Virus genome (UHGV): UHGV-0360189
Reading direction: 5' to 3' (one strand)
From: a virus
Length of the DNA: 30,757 nt
The translations under genes were made by a program, and so were the position numbers. Position 1 is the stretch's first letter. Every line of letters starts with the position of its first letter. Positions 3,971 through 12,079 of the stretch are shown here, one piece after another. The notes under the pieces are model-generated. The model did no database searches and was not told where the DNA came from. It worked only from the letters and a program-made list of their open reading frames with translations.

Positions 3971-4294
3971 ATGAAGATGCCAGAAAAACATGACCTGTTA
4001 GCCGCCATTCTCGCGGCAAAGGAACAAGGCATCGGGGCAATCCTTGCGTTTGCAATGGCGTACCTTCGCGGCAGATATAATGGCGGTGCGTTTACAAAAA
4101 CAGTAATCGACGCAACGATGTGCGCCATTATCGCCTGGTTCATTCGTGACCTTCTCGACTTCGCCGGACTAAGTAGCAATCTCGCTTATATAACGAGCGT
4201 GTTCATCGGCTACATCGGTACTGACTCGATTGGTTCGCTTATCAAACGCTTCGCTGCTAAAAAAGCCGGAGTAGAAGATGGTGGAAATCAATAA
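3971..4294 (+). CDS. S: Holin S (S107 antiholin / S105 holin, dual start)
   Basis: ORF track 3971..4294, 107 aa, [34 protein letters not shown]... matches lambda S; Met1-Lys2-Met3 dual-start motif and three hydrophobic segments. Confidence 0.92.
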
Positions 4295-4754
4295 TCAACG
4301 TAAGGCGTTCCTCGATATGCTGGCGTGGTCAGAGGGAACTGATAACGGACGGCAGAAAACCAGAAATCATGGTTATGACGTCATTGTAGGCGGAGAGCTA
4401 TTCACTGATTACTCCGATCACCCTCGCAAACTTGTCACGCTAAACCCCAAACTCAAATCAACAGCAGCCGGACGTTACCAGCTTCTTTCACGTTGGTGGG
4501 ATGCCTACCGCAAGCAACTTGGCCTGAAAGACTTCTCTCCCAAAAGCCAGGACGCAGTGGCATTGCAGCAGATTAAAGAGCGTGGCGCTTTACCGATGAT
4601 TGATCGCGGTGATATTCGTCAGGCTATCGACCGTTGCAGCAATATCTGGGCTTCACTGCCGGGCGCTGGTTATGGTCAGTTCGAGCATAAGGCTGACAGC
4701 CTGATTGCAAAATTCAAAGAAGCGGGCGGAACGGTCAGAGAGATTGAGGTATGA
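4278..4754 (+). CDS. R: Endolysin R (lytic transglycosylase)
   Basis: ORF track 4278..4754, 158 aa, [39 protein letters not shown]... matches lambda R; overlaps the S 3' end by 17 nt. Confidence 0.92.
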
Positions 4755-5209
4755 GCAGAGTAACCGCGATTATCCCCGCTCTGATTATCTGCATCATCGT
4801 CTGCCTGTCATGGGCTGTTAATCATTACCGTGATAACGCAATCGCCTACAAAGAGCAGCGCGATAACAAGGCCAGTGAACTGGAGAAGGCGAACGCCACC
4901 ATCGCTGACATGCGGAAGCGTCAACGTGATGTAGCAGAACTCGACGCAAGATACACAAAGGAGCTTGCTGATGCTAACGCGACTATCGAAAGTCTCCGTG
5001 CTGATGTTTCTGCTGGGCGTAAGCGCCTGCAAGTCGCCGCCACCTGTGCAAAGTCAACGACCGGAGCCAGCGGCATGGGCGATGGAGAAAGCCCAGGACT
5101 TACAGCAGATGCTGAACTCAATTATTACCGTCTCCGAAGTGGAATCGACAAGATAACCGCGCAGGTTAACTACCTGCAGGAATACATCAGGACGCAATGC
5201 CTGAAATAA
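4751..5209 (+). CDS. Rz: Rz i-spanin (inner-membrane spanin subunit)
   Basis: ORF track 4751..5209, 152 aa; N-terminal transmembrane segment ([18 protein letters not shown]) followed by a coiled-coil-like periplasmic domain; ATGA overlap with R. Diverged from lambda Rz in the C-terminal half. Confidence 0.85.
4965..5156 (+). CDS. Rz1: Rz1 o-spanin (outer-membrane lipoprotein), embedded in Rz in the +1 frame
   Basis: ORF track 4965..5156, 63 aa; lipoprotein signal with lipobox-like VSAC followed by a proline-rich mature region ([13 protein letters not shown]); lies wholly inside Rz, as in lambda. Confidence 0.72.
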
Positions 5210-5241
5210 TTTTTTTGCAAATCACAAAGTCCATTTAATGA

Positions 5242-5263
5242 GCCTCGCGATGCGGGGCTTTTT
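5242..5263 (+). terminator. Candidate intrinsic terminator 1 downstream of Rz
   Basis: Imperfect hairpin GCCTCGC-gat-GCGGGGC (5242-5258) followed by a short T-run (CTTTTT). Free energy not computed. Confidence 0.4.
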
Positions 5264-5270
5264 GCAATAA

Positions 5271-5295
5271 ATGCGTACCGCAACGCATGTTTTTT
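5271..5295 (+). terminator. Candidate intrinsic terminator 2 downstream of Rz
   Basis: Perfect 6-bp stem ATGCGT/ACGCAT (5271-5276 / 5283-5288) with loop ACCGCA, then G and TTTTTT (5290-5295). Confidence 0.5.
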
Positions 5296-5410
5296 ACACC
5301 GAACCTGCCCCTTTGGAATGGGCCTTTGAGGATACCAGTTAGTGCTGGCGAGCCTCGGCGGGCTGGTTTCCTGTGCGGCAAAGGTTCATTTCAAAGAGTA
5401 GGTACACGCT

Positions 5411-5908
5411 ATGAAATCATTAACCCTCTTCAATCAACCAATTCGTATCGGTGAAGATGGCATGATCTGCCTCACTGATATGTGGAAAGCCAGTGGTAAA
5501 AGTGAATCTGAATCGCCTTACCACTACCTGCGAAACAAGCAGACCAAAGAGTTCTTAGCCGAGCTGGAGAAAAACCACGAATCTGTGGTTTTTACTGAGC
5601 GCGGTGTACACGGTGGAACATATGGCGGGAAGTTTGTTGCTTACGATTATGCGGCTTGGTTAAACCCCGGGTTCAAGTACGCGGCCTATAAAGTCCTCGA
5701 TGACTACTTCACCGGAGAACTTCAGCATCGCAACAGCTTAAGTGCGCAGCTCAACATGAAATGTCATGAGTTTGACCAGAAGAAAGACATGGCGAGCTTC
5801 TGCGGACAAGGGCTGGCAGCATGGCGCTATACGAAGCCAGTGTTGGTCGCTGAGATTAACTCCCTGGCTAACCAGCTGCAGATTACGATCCCCGGGCTTC
5901 CGGGATGA
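5411..5908 (+). CDS. KilA-N-like domain protein (accessory, function unknown)
   Basis: ORF track 5411..5908, 165 aa. The N-terminal region (IRIGEDGMICLTDMWKASGKSESESPYHYLRNKQTKEFLAELEK) resembles the KilA-N/APSES-type DNA-binding domain as I recall it; not verified by profile search. Sits where lambda has bor. Confidence 0.45.
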   Translation: MKSLTLFNQPIRIGEDGMICLTDMWKASGKSESESPYHYLRNKQTKEFLAELEKNHESVVFTERGVHGGTYGGKFVAYDYAAWLNPGFKYAAYKVLDDYFTGELQHRNSLSAQLNMKCHEFDQKKDMASFCGQGLAAWRYTKPVLVAEINSLANQLQITIPGLPG

Positions 5909-6174
5909 GTGATCGTGTTATTGAATGCGCCTCCAGAGCGGGGCGCGACTTCTCAGAGTTCATGAAAGGCGAGAAGGGCATGATGGAAGCATTGGCCTCG
6001 GTGGATGAGTTTGGCGAGCAGCTGCGCCTCAACGGCTGTGTCAATCATCACTTTGTTAGCTACATGATGCGGAACTCGATCATGCAGGCATTCATGGACA
6101 TGGCAAAAGCCGAGAGGAAAGAAGAGCGCCGGCGTAAGCGAGCGGAAGCAAAAGCAAAAGCAAAAGTGAAGTAG
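5905..6174 (+). CDS. Hypothetical small protein with basic Lys/Ala-rich C-terminal tail
   Basis: ORF track 5905..6174, 89 aa; start overlaps the upstream stop (ATGA), suggesting translational coupling with the KilA-N-like gene; C-terminus KAERKEERRRKRAEAKAKAKVK. No family recognised. Confidence 0.5.
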   Translation: MSDRVIECASRAGRDFSEFMKGEKGMMEALASVDEFGEQLRLNGCVNHHFVSYMMRNSIMQAFMDMAKAERKEERRRKRAEAKAKAKVK

Positions 6175-6398
6175 CCATTACAAAGCCCATTTACGGGTGG
6201 GCTTGATAATGAAACCGGAATTTATTCTGGGCCACCAGTTAACGGCAGTACCACGAAACAACCCAAGCCAGTAAGTGGGGAAATAACACCGGCAGCCACT
6301 GAAAGATGAACCTCCTGCCTTATGGCAAAAAAGATTCTTTGTGGTGGCGGACTGATGGAAAGACATCCTAATTTCAGCCAAACATTGAAGGAGTTGTT

Positions 6399-6470
6399 AT
6401 GTCAGCAGAAGGTTTCAATAACCCATCAAAATTCCGGGATGAGTGGGATAGCAGCGTAAAGAGTAAGTGA
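6399..6470 (+). CDS. Candidate small ORF, 23 codons (MSAEGFNNPSKFRDEWDSSVKSK)
   Basis: Not in the ORF track (too short). ATG 6399 preceded by GAAGGAG (6387-6393) with a 5-nt spacer; stop TGA 6468-6470; bracketed by the two hairpin-containing repeats. Coding status unproven. Confidence 0.3.
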   Translation: MSAEGFNNPSKFRDEWDSSVKSK

Positions 6471-6762
6471 TGCCATCACAAAAGCCATTCCCTACAGAGT
6501 GGCTTTGATAATGGCTTATACCCTACACGGGATAACTTAACTGATATCCCTTTTAAAGGATAAAGGTATTCAAGCCTGACACATCATGCGCTGTATCGTC
6601 GCCGTATTCCCGTATTAACAGAGACCGTAGCCCGACGGGGAACTCCTTCTGCGCGAGTGTGCGGGAATAATCAAAAACGATGCACACCGGGGTTACCGGG
6701 TACACATATTTCATCATGCCAGCGAGTCCGGTTCTGGCACGGAAGAAACCGGACGTTATGAT

Positions 6763-7188
6763 TTAGTGCGGAAATATTTGTGTAGTGTTCTGAATGTTCT
6801 CAGTAAAGAGTAATGAATTATCAAAGGTATAGTAATACCTTTTGTTTTCGTGGATATTTGTAATCCATCTGAAAACCCCTGCTGTAGCAAGATTTTTCCT
6901 GTATTCGTAAAATGATAACTCTCCTGATTTGAATCCTTTTAAGGTGGCTTCTATAAGGCATTTATTTTTTGAAAATCTTACATTTACAACCTTACCCTGT
7001 CCTTTTATTAAAACCGTATTATCGTTTTCAAGAACAAGATGAATATTCTCTGTGGCTAAATAGTAAATGTAATGTGAGACATTGTGACGTTTTAGTTCAG
7101 AATAAAACCAGTGATAGTTTAAATTATTTCGCACTTTATCGAATATTTGTTTAAAAATGGCAACCTGAGCCATTGTAGTACCTTCCAT
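6763..7188 (-). CDS. AT-rich accessory protein, YdfO/YbcV-like (DUF1398-type as I recall), function unknown
   Basis: ORF track 6763..7188 (-), 141 aa. A more likely start is the second ATG (about 7173, [11 protein letters not shown]...) preceded by GGAAGG. The gene is markedly AT-rich by eye compared with the flanking lambda-like genes. Family assignment is from memory of E. coli cryptic-prophage genes next to the nu1 homologue, not from a search. Confidence 0.6.
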
Positions 7189-7230
7189 GTGATATGAGGG
7201 GGCGTAGTCTGCACGATTATCTAAATTGCT

Positions 7231-7464
7231 TCAATCTGGTCTAACCTGTTTTCTGAGCAATTCAGTAATGTCACTCTTTTCTTTGTTTGCTTCAGGCGAA
7301 ACTCTTTTTTCTGAGCACAGTCTCCGGCGGCAGGCTTCAATGACCCAGGCTGAGAAATTCCCGGACCCTTTTTGAACAAGAGCGATGTTAATTTGTTCAA
7401 TCATTTGGTTAGGAAAGCGGATGTTGCGGGTTGTTGTTCTGCGGGTTCTGTTCTTCGTTGACAT
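7231..7464 (-). CDS. Small ribbon-helix-helix-type DNA-binding protein, YnfO/YlcI-like
   Basis: ORF track 7231..7464 (-), 77 aa, MSTKNRTRRTTTRNIRFPNQMIEQINIALVQKGSGNFSAWVIEACRRRL... Basic N-terminus then a pattern compatible with an RHH (Arc/MetJ/CopG-like) fold; lies immediately left of cos and upstream, on the same strand, of the AT-rich gene. Confidence 0.6.
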   Translation of the reverse strand: MSTKNRTRRTTTRNIRFPNQMIEQINIALVQKGSGNFSAWVIEACRRRLCSEKRVSPEANKEKSDITELLRKQVRPD

Positions 7465-7663
7465 GAGGTTGCCCTGTATTCAGTGTCGATGATTTGTATT
7501 GTCTGAAGTTGTTTTTACGTTAAGTTGATGCAGATCAATTAATACGATACCCGCGTCATAATTGATTATTTGACGTGGTTTGATGGCGTAGATGCACGTT
7601 GTGACATGCAGATGATAATCATTATCATTTTGCGGGTCCTTTCCGGCGATCCGACAGGTTACG

Positions 7664-7675
7664 GGGCGGCGACCT
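7664..7675. other. cosN: 12-nt cohesive-end sequence GGGCGGCGACCT at the terminase nicking site
   Basis: Exact match to the lambda cohesive end; flanking sequence on both sides (..CCGACAGGTTACG | GGGCGGCGACCTCGCGGGTTTTCGCTATTTATGAAAATTTTCC..) matches the joined lambda right and left ends. Confidence 0.88.
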
Positions 7676-7852
7676 CGCGGGTTTTCGCTATTTATGAAAA
7701 TTTTCCGGTTTAAGGTGTTTCCGTTCTTCTTCGTCGTAACTTAATGTTTTTATTTAAAATACCCCCTGAAAAGAAAGGAAACGACAGGTGCTGAAAGCGA
7801 GCTTTTTGGCCTCTGTCGTTTCCTTTCTCTGTTTTTGTCCGTGGAATGAGCA
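7676..7852 (+). promoter_or_regulatory. cosB region (terminase small-subunit binding elements upstream of nu1)
   Basis: Inverted pair AGAAAGGAAACGACAG (7772-7787) and CTGTCGTTTCCTTTCT (7813-7828), resembling the lambda R3/R2 gpNu1-binding elements; A/T-rich segment between cosN and these elements consistent with an IHF site. Boundaries approximate. Confidence 0.6.
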
Positions 7853-8372
7853 ATGGAAGTCAACAAAAAGCAGCTGGCTGACATTTTCGGTGCGAGTATC
7901 CGTACCATTCAGAACTGGCAGGAACAGGGAATGCCCGTTCTGCGAGGCGGTGGCAAGGGTAATGAGGTGCTTTATGACTCTGCCGCCGTTATAAGATGGT
8001 ATGCCGAAAGGGATGCTGAAATTGAGAACGAAAAGCTGCGCCGGGAAGTTGAAGAACTGCGGCAGGCCAGCGAGACAGATCTCCAGCCAGGGACTATTGA
8101 GTACGAACGCCATCGACTTACGCGTGCGCAGGCCGACGCACAGGAGCTGAAAAATGCCAGAGACTCCGCTGAAGTGGTGGAAACCGCATTCTGTACTTTC
8201 GTGCTGTCGCGGATCGCAGGTGAAATTGCCAGTATTCTCGACGGGATCCCCCTGTCGGTGCAGCGGCGTTTTCCGGAACTGGAAAACCGACATGTTGATT
8301 TCCTGAAACGGGATATCATCAAAGCCATGAACAAAGCAGCCGCGCTGGATGAACTGATACCGGGGTTGCTGA

Positions 8373-8398
<26 letters not shown>
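7853..8398 (+). CDS. nu1: Terminase small subunit Nu1
   Basis: ORF track 7853..8398, 181 aa, MEVNKKQLADIFGASIRTIQNWQEQGMPV... matches lambda gpNu1 (winged-HTH N-terminus). Confidence 0.93.

Positions 8399-12079
<3,681 letters not shown>

What the first reader, a model, noticed from the sequence alone, without database searches (positions are those of the whole stretch)
6763..7464. AT-rich gene plus ribbon-helix-helix gene on the minus strand, abutting cos
Between the lysis cassette and cos, on the strand opposite to all flanking phage genes, sits a two-gene unit: a 77-aa protein with an RHH-like DNA-binding pattern (7464-7231) followed by a 136-141 aa protein (7188-6763). The second gene is conspicuously AT-rich against the GC-balanced lambda-like backbone, which suggests a horizontally acquired moron. 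I recall these as YnfO/YlcI-like and YdfO/YbcV-like families found next to nu1 homologues in E. coli cryptic prophages; neither has an established function. The arrangement of a small DNA-binding protein upstream of a cargo gene of foreign composition, transcribed against the late operon, fits a lysogen-expressed module such as superinfection exclusion, abortive infection or a toxin-antitoxin-like pair. That functional reading is speculation.
Basis: partly seen in the sequence, partly recalled or inferred. Interest (0 to 1): 0.7.

Follow-up and report, generated by a model that had tools for sequence, protein, structure and literature searches.

The report
Known lambda right-end ynfO–ydfO genes
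These two small minus-strand genes next to cos are copies of the widespread but still uncharacterised YnfO/YlcI (DUF3950) and YdfO/YbcV (DUF1398) families, which phage lambda and about 70% of complete E. coli genomes also carry, and nothing here shows them to be a toxin-antitoxin or defence pair.

Summary
On the minus strand, 7464..7231 encodes a 77-aa DUF3950 (YlcI/YnfO) protein. 7173..6763 encodes a 136-aa DUF1398 protein about 80% identical to E. coli YdfO (PDB 2HH8); the ATG at 7188 is probably not the start. The DUF1398 gene has 31% GC against 54% for the window. Both genes are under purifying selection.

The pair is not new. It is 100% identical to E. coli prophage DNA and about 88% identical to K-12 Qin ynfO-ydfO. 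Lambda has the same two genes split by ybcW/lambdap79. It matches 3800 of 5426 complete E. coli genomes.

The two genes do not behave as one unit. The DUF3950 core is in 151 phage records and sits divergent from nu1/cos. DUF1398 is in 43. Other phages carry a PerC gene there instead. Distant DUF1398 relatives stand alone on chromosomes.

The upstream region carries the FNR and Fur sites shown experimentally in K-12. I infer that the FNR box drives the DUF3950 gene as a class II promoter.

There is no match to a toxin, a defence system or an enzyme, and the DUF1398 fold has no informative structural neighbour. My best reading is two host-regulated accessory genes. Their function remains unknown. 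Interest is low to moderate.

The parts
7231..7464 (-). 77-aa DUF3950 (YlcI/YnfO family) gene, with a putative ribbon-helix-helix DNA-binding core at residues about 13-50 and a variable C-terminal tail.
   Evidence: Pfam PF13132 E=2e-20 and NCBIfam NF041551 at 35.2 bits. The N-terminal 50 aa are almost invariant while the tails are mosaic. Core pN/pS is 0.10. The AF2 single-sequence model places helices at 19-31 and 37-50. hhalign aligns it in register with Arc/Mnt/CopG, but only at P=0.026.
6763..7173 (-). 136-aa DUF1398 (YdfO/YbcV family) gene, AT-rich (GC 0.31). The ORF can be extended to an ATG at 7188 (141 aa), but that start is probably not used.
7216..7250 (-). Predicted sigma-70 promoter for the DUF1398 gene (-35 TAGACC at 7243-7238, -10 GATAAT at 7221-7216), overlapped by a PdhR-box-like palindrome ATCTGGTCTAACCTGTT at 7234-7250.
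   Evidence: Promoter scan. The block from GGT(T/C)AGACCAGAT down to the ATG is conserved in the window, K-12 Qin, lambda, a DLP12-type prophage and PhiR70_1, although the DNA upstream differs. The homologous K-12 sites were found by PdhR genomic SELEX, and ybcV mRNA fell 10-fold in a pdhR mutant (PMC7660256).
7490..7538 (-). Inferred leftward class II FNR-type promoter for the DUF3950 gene: FNR box TTGATGCAGATCAA at 7525-7538, -10 GACAAT at 7503-7498, predicted start site near 7490, leader of about 26 nt.
   Evidence: The box is unique in the window, with 0.02 copies expected by chance. The identical 24-mer bound FNR in vivo (ChIP-chip) and in vitro (EMSA) in K-12 Qin and DLP12 (PMC1802558). 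113 of 128 loci keep the box centred 67 nt before the ATG. Across five loci the half-sites are kept while the spacer varies. The promoter geometry is my inference.
7601..7632 (+). Fur box (two overlapping 16/19 matches at 7608-7626 and 7614-7632, palindrome TGATAATCATTATCA) overlapping a rightward promoter-like site (GTGACA-16-TATCAT, 7601-7628) that points at cosQ, cosN and nu1.
   Evidence: 0 copies expected by chance. Fur binding to the homologous nohA and nohB upstream sites was predicted at 22-25 bits. A gel shift was done with a nohA oligonucleotide, and the region was recovered from an in vivo Fur-binding screen (PMC2189734).
7634..7675 (+). cosQ (GGGTCCT, 7634-7640) and the cosN cohesive-end sequence (GGGCGGCGACCT, 7664-7675). 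These are context, not part of the gene pair.
   Evidence: The region is homologous to the lambda right end. The names cosQ and cosN come from established lambda knowledge.

Best explanation
Identity: this is the ordinary 'right-end' accessory region of lambda-like phages, in the same arrangement as ynfO-ydfO of the E. coli K-12 Qin prophage. It holds two separately evolving small genes, not one two-component system.

(1) The DUF3950 gene is the constant element.
- It sits divergent from nu1 across cos in lambda, Stx phages and cryptic prophages.
- It encodes a very basic 9-kDa protein whose first 50 residues are strongly conserved and fit a strand-helix-turn-helix (RHH-like) DNA-binding pattern.
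- I infer that it is transcribed leftward from a class II FNR-dependent promoter, so it would be switched on by anaerobiosis in the lysogen, and that it acts as a small dimeric DNA-binding regulator. Its target is unknown.

(2) The DUF1398 gene is an optional, AT-rich, horizontally acquired cargo gene (a moron).
- It lies downstream of the DUF3950 gene and keeps its own short promoter and leader block, which carries a PdhR-type box.
- It is dispensable for lambda lytic growth.
- It encodes a soluble, basic 16-kDa protein built as a duplicated alpha-alpha-beta-beta-beta unit. It has no catalytic signature, no signal peptide and no informative structural neighbour.
- Most likely it is a lysogen-expressed accessory protein under host regulators (PdhR, and probably H-NS silencing because of its AT content) that works by binding something rather than by catalysis.

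Shown here or in the literature: family identity, gene order, composition, selection, presence/absence pattern, and FNR, Fur and PdhR binding at the homologous K-12 sites. Inferred: promoter assignments, DNA binding by the DUF3950 protein, expression in the lysogen, and any physiological role.
For: - Family identity.
- Same locus in lambda, HK629, phage Kati, K-12 Qin and a DLP12-type prophage.
- Prevalence: 3800 of 5426 complete E. coli genomes have a match and 2677 carry the whole pair; RefSeq already names the genes.
- Purifying selection: DUF3950 core pS 0.32, pN 0.03; DUF1398 pN/pS 0.38; both ORFs intact in 77 of 77 loci.
- DUF3950 is the cos-linked constant and DUF1398 the optional cargo: 151 against 43 phage records. 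In the DUF3950-anchored sample of 80 loci, the commonest pattern (43 loci) was TerL-Nu1, the DUF3950 gene and Rz with no DUF1398, and only 15 loci had DUF1398. Two loci of that type carry a PerC gene there, one of them beside a Nu1 only 40% identical to this one.
- Foreign composition.
- Own promoter block travels with DUF1398 across arrangements.
- FNR box geometry and conservation. FNR ChIP-chip and EMSA on the identical sequence: PMC1802558.
- PdhR SELEX and a 10-fold drop of ybcV mRNA in a pdhR mutant: PMC7660256.
- lambdap78 is non-essential by CRISPRi: PMC10695390.
- ydfO is transcriptionally responsive: 117-fold by qPCR 30 min after [C2mim]Cl addition, and growth-phase dependent (PMC4077768).
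- ydfO scores as 'essential' only by transposon sequencing (PMC5821084). I read this as low insertion density in H-NS-bound AT-rich DNA.
- No defence, toxin or enzyme match.
Against: - RHH membership of the DUF3950 protein is not established. hhalign gave P=0.026 and probability 1.9%. A profile search of PDB found nothing. The single-sequence AF2 model is poor, with pLDDT 55.
- No transcription start site or expression data were available for either promoter in this phage.
- The FNR study found only marginal FNR effects, but it tested the fragment as a nohA-directed fusion and not in the leftward direction.
- There are only 42 nt between the DUF3950 stop codon and the 7188 ATG (57 nt to the Met6 ATG), and no terminator was predicted there. 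Co-transcription as an operon is therefore possible, and that is the classic antitoxin-toxin layout.
- Wherever a phage-borne DUF1398 gene could be examined with upstream sequence, a DUF3950 gene lay upstream (77 of 77). A one-way dependence of DUF1398 on DUF3950 is not excluded.
- No function for either protein has been shown anywhere.
Confidence: 0.55

Rival explanations
1. Toxin-antitoxin, abortive-infection or superinfection-exclusion module. The RHH protein would be the antitoxin and autorepressor, and the DUF1398 protein the toxin or effector.
For: - The small basic DNA-binding-like protein is encoded first and a larger protein second, on the same strand, 42-57 nt apart, with no predicted terminator between them.
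- The pair is transcribed against the late operon.
- Phage-borne DUF1398 genes always had a DUF3950 gene upstream in the loci that could be read.
- A rare natural fusion of the two ORFs exists (P0013).
Against: - PADLOC gave no hit and Pfam found no toxin family.
- DUF3950 occurs without DUF1398 in most Stx-type loci.
- Lambda and DLP12 separate the two genes with an oppositely oriented gene and replace the DUF3950 tail, yet keep both genes.
- Distant DUF1398 homologues are solitary.
- The DUF3950 C-terminal tail, where antitoxins bind their toxins, is the non-conserved part.
- YdfO was produced and solved by NMR (2HH8), which suggests it can be over-produced in E. coli. This last point is my inference.
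Confidence: 0.1
2. The DUF3950 protein belongs to the packaging module. It would bind near cosQ or cosB, or regulate terminase expression. DUF1398 would be an unrelated passenger.
For: - The gene is almost always divergent from nu1 across cos. This holds even beside a Nu1 only 40% identical to this one (L135).
- The gene's N-terminal half and its upstream region appear conserved together next to cos, while the sequence after about codon 50 is mosaic.
- YlcI/YnfO proteins are listed in capsid-forming, cos-type satellites of Enterobacter that carry their own TerS and TerL (PMC13612085).
- A Fur-box-controlled rightward promoter-like site faces cos and nu1.
Against: - Decades of lambda genetics and minimal-cos cosmids have found no packaging gene to the left of cosQ (established lambda knowledge, not tested here).
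- 15 of 128 loci have the gene with a completely different upstream region.
- Linkage to cos could be simple hitch-hiking, because it is the last gene before the genome end.
Confidence: 0.15
3. Programmed UGA readthrough, or a fusion protein: the two ORFs would be one gene product, an RHH domain joined to a DUF1398 effector domain.
For: In the window the ORFs are in frame, separated by a single TGA plus 14 sense codons. A TGA-to-TGG variant encodes a 233-aa fusion (P0013).
Against: - The frame is not conserved. Among 77 loci, 40 are in frame and 37 are shifted by a 1-nt indel. Some in-frame loci carry a second stop.
- The fusion itself was seen on only 6 contigs. The '761 members' of its cluster are ordinary 136-aa proteins.
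- Lambda and DLP12 have the genes physically separated.
Confidence: 0.02
4. Decaying, functionless remnants that persist only because they lie next to cos.
For: No phenotype is known. lambdap78 is non-essential. The pair is common in cryptic prophages.
Against: Both ORFs are intact in 77 of 77 loci. pN/pS is 0.10 and 0.38. The transcription-factor half-sites are conserved while their spacers vary.
Confidence: 0.05

Closest known systems
E. coli K-12 Qin prophage ynfO-ydfO (YdfO structure: PDB 2HH8)
   Same: - Same gene order, strand relation and 57-nt spacing to the Met6 ATG. The whole 702-bp interval is 87.6% identical in nucleotides.
- The same FNR box, Fur palindrome and cosN lie upstream.
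   Different: - A different allele: the DUF1398 protein differs at about 20% of positions, mostly in residues 58-95.
- The neighbours on the lysis side differ. Here they are a KilA-N/ORF11CD3 gene and orf89; in Qin they are cspI, ymcF, ynfR, ynfN and gnsB.
Phage lambda right end: lambdap78, lambdap79, and a 64-aa YlcI/YnfO ORF not annotated in the lambda records seen here (equivalent to DLP12 ybcV-ybcW-ylcI)
   Same: Homologous DNA runs from just downstream of the DUF1398 gene, through both genes, to cos and nu1. The DUF1398 protein is 76% identical and the DUF3950 core 98% identical.
   Different: Lambda and DLP12 carry a + strand gene (ybcW/lambdap79) inserted into the 3' end of the DUF3950 gene. 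This gives a 64-aa protein with a new tail and leaves the old tail as a remnant upstream of lambdap78. Lambda also has bor downstream, which this window lacks.
Stx-phage and EHEC-prophage right ends with a DUF3950 gene and a PerC homologue
   Same: The same cos-proximal DUF3950 gene with the same upstream region, FNR box included.
   Different: There is no DUF1398 gene. The interval between the DUF3950 gene and Rz holds a PerC-family gene (PF06069, E=5e-44) on the late-gene strand.
Ribbon-helix-helix regulators (Arc, Mnt, CopG, NikR N-domain, ParD)
   Same: The pattern matches: a short strand (NIRF), helix A, a G-x-(S/T/N)-type turn (GSGNFS) and helix B. hhalign puts them in that exact register. 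The predicted helices fit. The N-terminal arm is basic.
   Different: No statistically significant sequence or fold match was obtained. Dimerisation and DNA binding are untested.
Solitary chromosomal DUF1398 genes (a 43%-identical group that I take to be E. coli ycgX, and 25-40% identical genes in Kluyvera, Klebsiella, Raoultella, Pseudocitrobacter and Salmonella diarizonae)
   Same: Same family and length, and the same conserved motifs (YYIYxxAT, AGVF(K/R)W, RxYY).
   Different: They are not in prophages and have no DUF3950, nu1 or terminase gene nearby.

Membership tests
DUF1398 (Pfam PF07166; YdfO/YbcV/YcgX) | Full-length match to the family HMM above the curated cut-off | tested here: met
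   147 bits against a cut-off of 22, covering profile positions 1-119 of 119.
DUF1398 (Pfam PF07166; YdfO/YbcV/YcgX) | The YdfO fold as solved in PDB 2HH8 | tested here: met
DUF3950 / YlcI-YnfO (Pfam PF13132, NCBIfam NF041551) | HMM match above the curated cut-offs | tested here: met
   PF13132 72.8 bits against 25. NF041551 35.2 bits against 30.
DUF3950 / YlcI-YnfO (Pfam PF13132, NCBIfam NF041551) | Position divergent from a nu1-type small terminase gene across cos in lambdoid elements. This is an empirical hallmark, not a formal criterion. | tested here: met
   The same position is seen in the window, lambda/O276, a DLP12-type prophage, PhiR70_1 and most IMG/VR loci.
Ribbon-helix-helix (MetJ/Arc) superfamily | Strand-helix-helix core with a G-x-(S/T/N)-type turn, detectable by profile or fold comparison | tested here: inconclusive
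   The sequence pattern and predicted helices 19-31 and 37-50 fit. A PDB profile search and Foldseek gave nothing.
Ribbon-helix-helix (MetJ/Arc) superfamily | Dimer that inserts a two-stranded sheet into the DNA major groove | not testable with these tools
   Needs multimer modelling or EMSA/footprinting.
Type II toxin-antitoxin pair | The two genes co-occur as an obligate unit across relatives | tested here: not met
   151 against 43 phage records. Loci with DUF3950 only. The ybcW insertion in lambda and DLP12. Solitary distant DUF1398 genes.
Type II toxin-antitoxin pair | The second gene belongs to, or resembles, a known toxin family or fold | tested here: not met
Type II toxin-antitoxin pair | Toxicity of gene 2 that is neutralised by gene 1 | not testable with these tools
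   Requires cloning and expression.
Known anti-phage defence systems (PADLOC-DB v2) | Match to a defence-system protein model | tested here: not met
   The only hit was a chance-level one: Csx23, E=0.025, 12.6 bits, for DUF1398. There was none for DUF3950.
Moron (prophage accessory gene) | Base composition unlike the backbone, and presence/absence polymorphism between otherwise collinear phages | tested here: met
   GC 0.314 against 0.541. DUF1398 is present in some right ends and absent or replaced in others.
Moron (prophage accessory gene) | Own promoter, and expression from the repressed prophage | tested here: inconclusive
   A promoter-like site at 7243-7216 lies in a block that stays with the gene across arrangements. 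K-12 ydfO and ybcV transcripts are detected and regulated (PMC4077768, PMC7660256). No data exist for this phage, and no terminator was found.
Virion 'head protein' or 'envelope protein' (labels attached to PHROG 413 and lambdap78) | Similarity to a known structural protein, or a signal peptide or transmembrane segment | tested here: not met

The most novel reading that the evidence does not exclude
The cos-proximal DUF3950 gene may be an overlooked, FNR-activated small DNA-binding regulator. In lambda it is a 64-aa ORF that the lambda records seen here do not annotate. Together with the adjacent Fur-controlled rightward promoter, it would link the host's oxygen and iron status to expression of right-end cargo genes such as DUF1398 or PerC, or to terminase expression, in lysogens. 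DUF1398 would then be an effector that works through an exposed, tyrosine-rich beta-sheet face, for example by binding RNA or single-stranded DNA, as in the weakly similar SRP9/14 and phage PA1C gp2 structures.
Probability: 0.15. Interest if true: 0.6.

Novelty: already known. Interest (0 to 1): 0.3.

Why it matters
Both families are very common. They match about 70% of complete E. coli genomes, up to 12 places per genome, and they are present in lambda itself. Yet both are still listed among the uncharacterised genes of E. coli. A function for either would fill one of the last blanks on the lambda map, and it would be relevant to Stx phages that carry the same cos-proximal gene.

The finding as submitted adds no new object, because the pair is already annotated in RefSeq under these family names. 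This re-examination contributes three things:
- Evidence that the two genes are not an obligate pair.
- A testable reassignment of the published FNR site, previously attributed to nohA and nohB, to a leftward class II promoter for the DUF3950 gene.
- A warning that the 'head protein' and 'envelope protein' labels, and the reported 'oxidative-stress' phenotype, are unsupported.

Tried and rejected
- Programmed readthrough or fusion. The in-frame single TGA looked interesting. The frame is not conserved (40 in frame, 37 shifted), and the fusion protein is rare (6 contigs).
- Structure of the DUF3950 protein. The single-sequence AF2 model was poor (pLDDT 55). Foldseek on it gave one meaningless hit.
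- One model of both domains. I built an alignment led by the natural fusion, but MAFFT misaligned the DUF1398 N-termini onto the DUF3950 region. I dropped it and modelled DUF1398 alone.
- PDB profile search with a DUF3950 alignment gave no RHH hit.
- Deep homology. phmmer against 1.84 billion representatives gave only 189 hits, many of them fragments; the relatives whose organisms I traced were all Enterobacteriaceae. Profile searches returned mostly lambda control-DNA reads, so the alignment for modelling stayed shallow.
- The first genome scan with an 18-sequence alignment failed for lack of conserved stretches. A 5-sequence alignment worked.
- Rfam gave no credible RNA family in 5200-8000.
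- No intrinsic terminator was found after either gene.
- Literature. A 2026 preprint that mentions lambdap79 was not held.
Full report
**1. What is there**

The window carries a lambda-like late region on the + strand.
- R lies at 4278-4754 and Rz at 4751-5209.
- Two extra + strand genes follow: a KilA-N/ORF11CD3 protein (5411-5908) and an 89-aa ORF (5905-6174).
- cos, nu1 (7853-8398) and terminase A (8373-10298) come next.
- The lambda cohesive-end sequence GGGCGGCGACCT occurs once, at 7664-7675. cosQ (GGGTCCT) is at 7634-7640.

GC drops to 0.31-0.36 over 6700-7300, against 0.50-0.57 on either side. By gene, GC is 0.314 for the second ORF, 0.444 for the first and 0.541 for the window.

**2. 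Identity**

The 141-aa ORF is a full-length DUF1398 protein (PF07166, 147 bits, cut-off 22). It is about 80% identical to E. coli K-12 YdfO, whose NMR structure is PDB 2HH8 (E=1.4e-69). The 77-aa ORF is DUF3950, the YlcI/YnfO family (PF13132 72.8 bits; NCBIfam NF041551 35.2 bits).

The true start of the DUF1398 gene is almost certainly the sixth codon (ATG at 7173, 136 aa). It is preceded by GGAAGG. Lambda and DLP12 have one extra T between the two ATGs, which puts the upstream ATG out of frame. Most database homologues are 136 aa long.

**3. It is a known, very common locus**

- The 702-bp interval is 100% identical to an E. coli chromosome and 87.6% identical to ydfO-ynfO of the K-12 Qin prophage.
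- It matches 3800 of 5426 complete E. coli genomes, 2677 of them over at least 80% of its length, with up to 12 places per genome. RefSeq already labels the genes 'DUF1398 domain-containing protein' and 'YlcI/YnfO family protein'.
- The region from just downstream of the DUF1398 gene to nu1 is homologous to the right end of lambda itself.
- Lambda carries bor, lambdap78 (DUF1398), lambdap79 (YbcW, + strand) and then a 64-aa YlcI/YnfO ORF. The closely related phage O276 record annotates that ORF, but no feature was reported for it in the GenBank lambda record J02459 or in the HK629, HK630 and DE3 records.
- In lambda and DLP12 the ybcW gene is inserted into the 3' end of the DUF3950 gene. This gives a new tail (…TSEKRAYTSIKSDEE), and the old tail survives as a remnant in the DNA upstream of lambdap78.
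- The window and Qin therefore show the uninterrupted arrangement.

**4. Are they real genes?**

Yes.
- Both ORFs were intact in all 77 IMG/VR loci where both could be read.
- Across 28 distinct nucleotide versions of the DUF3950 core (49 codons), segregating sites fall 8, 8 and 23 at codon positions 1, 2 and 3. Mean pS is 0.32 and mean pN 0.03, a ratio of 0.10. The conservation is therefore selection on the protein, not just on cis-acting DNA near cos.
- DUF1398 compared with lambdap78 gives pS 0.33 and pN 0.13, a ratio of 0.38. Most changes fall in residues 9-22 and 58-95.

**5. Are they one module?**

The evidence says no.
- By tblastn against 50,697 phage records, DUF1398 is in 43 records and the DUF3950 core in 151. 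The latter include many Stx1a, Stx2c and Stx2 phages.
- I anchored a sample of 80 IMG/VR loci on a 74-aa DUF3950 variant. The commonest pattern (43 loci) was terminase-Nu1, the DUF3950 gene and Rz with no DUF1398, and only 15 loci had DUF1398.
- In the two such loci I inspected, the interval holds a PerC-family gene (PF06069, E=5e-44) on the late strand.
- The DUF3950 gene keeps its place even next to a Nu1 that is only 40% identical to this one (L135).
- Conversely, distant DUF1398 relatives (25-44% identity) are solitary chromosomal genes with no DUF3950, Nu1 or terminase gene within 4 kb. They include a 43%-identical group that I take to be E. coli ycgX, and genes in Kluyvera, Klebsiella pneumoniae, Raoultella, Pseudocitrobacter and Salmonella diarizonae.
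- Within the DUF3950 protein, the first 50 residues are nearly invariant while the C-terminal tails are mosaic. The tail is where an antitoxin would hold its toxin.
- One dependence survives: every phage-borne DUF1398 gene that could be read had a DUF3950 gene upstream.

**6. A lead that failed**

In the window the two ORFs are in frame, separated by one TGA and 14 sense codons. A database protein, P0013 (233 aa), is the TGA-to-TGG fusion. I tested whether this reflects programmed readthrough.
- Among 77 loci, 40 are in frame and 37 are shifted by a 1-nt indel.
- Some in-frame loci have a second stop.
- The fusion sequence itself occurs on only 6 contigs. The 761 'members' of its cluster are ordinary 136-aa proteins.

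I rejected the idea.

**7. Regulatory signals**

The 200 bp between the DUF3950 start codon and cos hold two sites that were characterised in K-12. Those papers attributed them to nohA and nohB. I believe ynfO and ylcI were not yet annotated at that time.

(a) FNR site.
- TTAAGTTGATGCAGATCAATTAAT lies at 7520-7543, with the box TTGAT-N4-ATCAA at 7525-7538. The box is unique in the window, with 0.02 copies expected by chance.
- It is identical to the site at which FNR was found by ChIP-chip and confirmed by EMSA in Qin and DLP12 (PMC1802558).
- That study fused the fragment in the nohA direction only and saw marginal FNR effects.
- The box centre (7531.5) is 67 nt before the DUF3950 ATG in 113 of 128 loci. 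Across five loci examined, the half-sites are kept while the spacer varies among GCAG, GCGG and CTGC.
- On the minus strand a -10 element follows 28 nt after the centre (7503-7498). It reads GACAAT here and GATAAT in some variants.
- This places FNR at about -41.5 relative to a start site near 7490. That is the canonical class II FNR-activated geometry, with a 26-nt leader.
- The assignment to the DUF3950 gene is my inference. It has not been tested.

(b) Fur site.
- Two overlapping 16/19 matches to the Fur box lie at 7608-7632, with 0 expected by chance.
- They overlap a rightward promoter-like site, GTGACA-16-TATCAT, at 7601-7628.
- The homologous K-12 sites scored 22-25 bits. A nohA oligonucleotide shifted with Fur, and the region was recovered from an in vivo Fur-binding screen (PMC2189734).

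(c) Signals for the DUF1398 gene.
- The only minus-strand sigma-70-like site is TAGACC-16-GATAAT at 7243-7216, in the last codons of the DUF3950 gene and the spacer.
- It is overlapped by ATCTGGTCTAACCTGTT (7234-7250), the counterpart of the PdhR SELEX sites in ynfO/ydfO and ybcV/ybcW. ybcV mRNA fell 10-fold in a pdhR mutant (PMC7660256).
- The block from GGT(T/C)AGACCAGAT to the ATG is conserved in the window, Qin, lambda, a DLP12-type prophage and PhiR70_1, even though the DNA just upstream differs.
- The DUF1398 gene therefore seems to carry its own promoter and leader.
- No intrinsic terminator was predicted after either gene, so read-through from the DUF3950 promoter remains possible.

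**8. The proteins**

DUF1398:
- AF2 with a shallow alignment gave pLDDT 83 and pTM 0.77. The fold is a duplicated helix-helix-strand-strand-strand unit.
- BFVD gave no hit at E<=0.001. PADLOC gave none.
- The protein is basic (pI 9.4) and hydrophilic (GRAVY -0.41), which gives no support for a membrane or secreted protein.
- The database labels 'putative envelope protein' and 'head protein' (PHROG 413, RefSeq) have no support here. lambdap78 is non-essential by CRISPRi (PMC10695390).

DUF3950:
- It is very basic (pI 10.9).
- Its core, RNIRFPNQMIEQINIALVQKGSGNFSAWVIEACRRRL, fits the strand, helix A, G-x-(S/T/N)-type turn, helix B pattern of ribbon-helix-helix proteins.
- A single-sequence AF2 model puts helices at 19-31 and 37-50, but it is of low confidence (pLDDT 55).
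- A PDB profile search found nothing, and Foldseek on the poor model was uninformative.
- RHH membership is therefore plausible and unproven.

**9. Literature on function**

- Both families were still classed as uncharacterised in 2024 (PMC11551758).
- ydfO was induced 117-fold by qPCR 30 min after adding an imidazolium ionic liquid, in a growth-phase-dependent way (PMC4077768).
- ydfO responds to DicC over-expression (PMC11430063).
- It appears 'essential' only in transposon sequencing (PMC5821084). I read that as low insertion density in AT-rich, H-NS-bound DNA.
- The statement that 'YdfO overexpression increases oxidative-stress resistance' cites Wang et al. 2010. As I recall, that paper's abstract names the CPS-53 proteins YfdK, YfdO and YfdS. 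This is probably a gene-name mix-up. I could not open the paper to confirm it.

**10. Verdict**

The finding is real but ordinary. It is a known and already annotated gene pair of unknown function.

The best-supported picture has two parts. The first is a cos-linked, probably DNA-binding small protein under a likely FNR-dependent promoter. The second is an optional AT-rich moron with its own promoter under host regulators. The toxin-antitoxin and defence reading is not supported by the comparative data, although only experiments can exclude it.

The useful products of this re-examination are:
- the decoupling of the two genes;
- the testable reassignment of the published FNR site to the leftward gene;
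- the correction of misleading annotations.

Noticed in passing
window 7601-7632: A strong Fur box overlaps the -10 of a rightward promoter-like site that points into cosQ, cosN and nu1. In a prophage this could give iron-regulated transcription of the terminase genes. K-12 papers list it as a nohA/nohB Fur site.
   Followed up: partly
window 7534-7566: A 13-nt inverted repeat (ATCAATTAATACG / CGTCATAATTGAT, 7 nt apart) overlaps the right half of the FNR box. It could be an operator for the DUF3950 protein or for another factor.
   Followed up: no
window 6553-6717 (minus strand): A 54-aa ORF lies just downstream of the DUF1398 gene and travels with it in related loci. It has no Pfam, NCBIfam, PHROG or PADLOC hit. 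Its variants are mostly amino-acid changes, so it is doubtful as a gene. About 130 nt of it are 80% identical to HK629 (lambda-type) DNA.
   Followed up: partly
window 5411-6174 (plus strand): Two extra genes sit between Rz and the pair: a KilA-N + ORF11CD3 protein (antirepressor/Bro-like; weak PADLOC PDC-S22 hit, E=1e-8) and an 89-aa phrog_875 protein. Lambda has bor in this position instead.
   Followed up: no
window 7772-7828: A 25-nt imperfect inverted repeat lies just upstream of nu1. I take it to be the cosB terminase-binding (R) sites of lambda-type cos. Rfam gave only chance miRNA hits there.
   Followed up: no
P0013 and L167-L181 type loci; window 7189-7233: The two ORFs are in frame with a single TGA between them in about half of the loci. 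A rare TGA-to-TGG fusion allele (233 aa, 6 contigs) exists.
   Followed up: yes
GenBank MW057783.1 (hits H57, H77): 'Campylobacter phage CJLB-4' (48,361 bp) gives the same tblastn identities as lambda itself for both genes, at lambda-like coordinates. It looks like lambda DNA deposited under another name.
   Followed up: no
protein hits P0018-P0120 and P0143-P0239 (ENA contigs of about 3.5 kb): Hundreds of error-laden variants of lambdap78 and of the lambda YlcI-like ORF come from contigs of about 3.5 kb. I take these to be the 3.6-kb lambda control amplicon used in nanopore sequencing. 'YlcI' proteins attributed to Staphylococcus aureus, Bacillus and a spider are probably the same kind of contamination.
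   Followed up: no
literature (PMC4077768 ref 32; PMC9181523): ydfO (Qin) and yfdO (CPS-53) appear to be confused in papers. The oxidative-stress phenotype credited to YdfO probably belongs to YfdO.
   Followed up: partly
L106 3307-3621 and L135 3307-3621: In the Stx-type right ends inspected, the slot between the DUF3950 gene and Rz holds a PerC-family activator gene, which I take to be a pch-like gene. The same cos-proximal slot therefore carries different cargo in different phages.
   Followed up: partly
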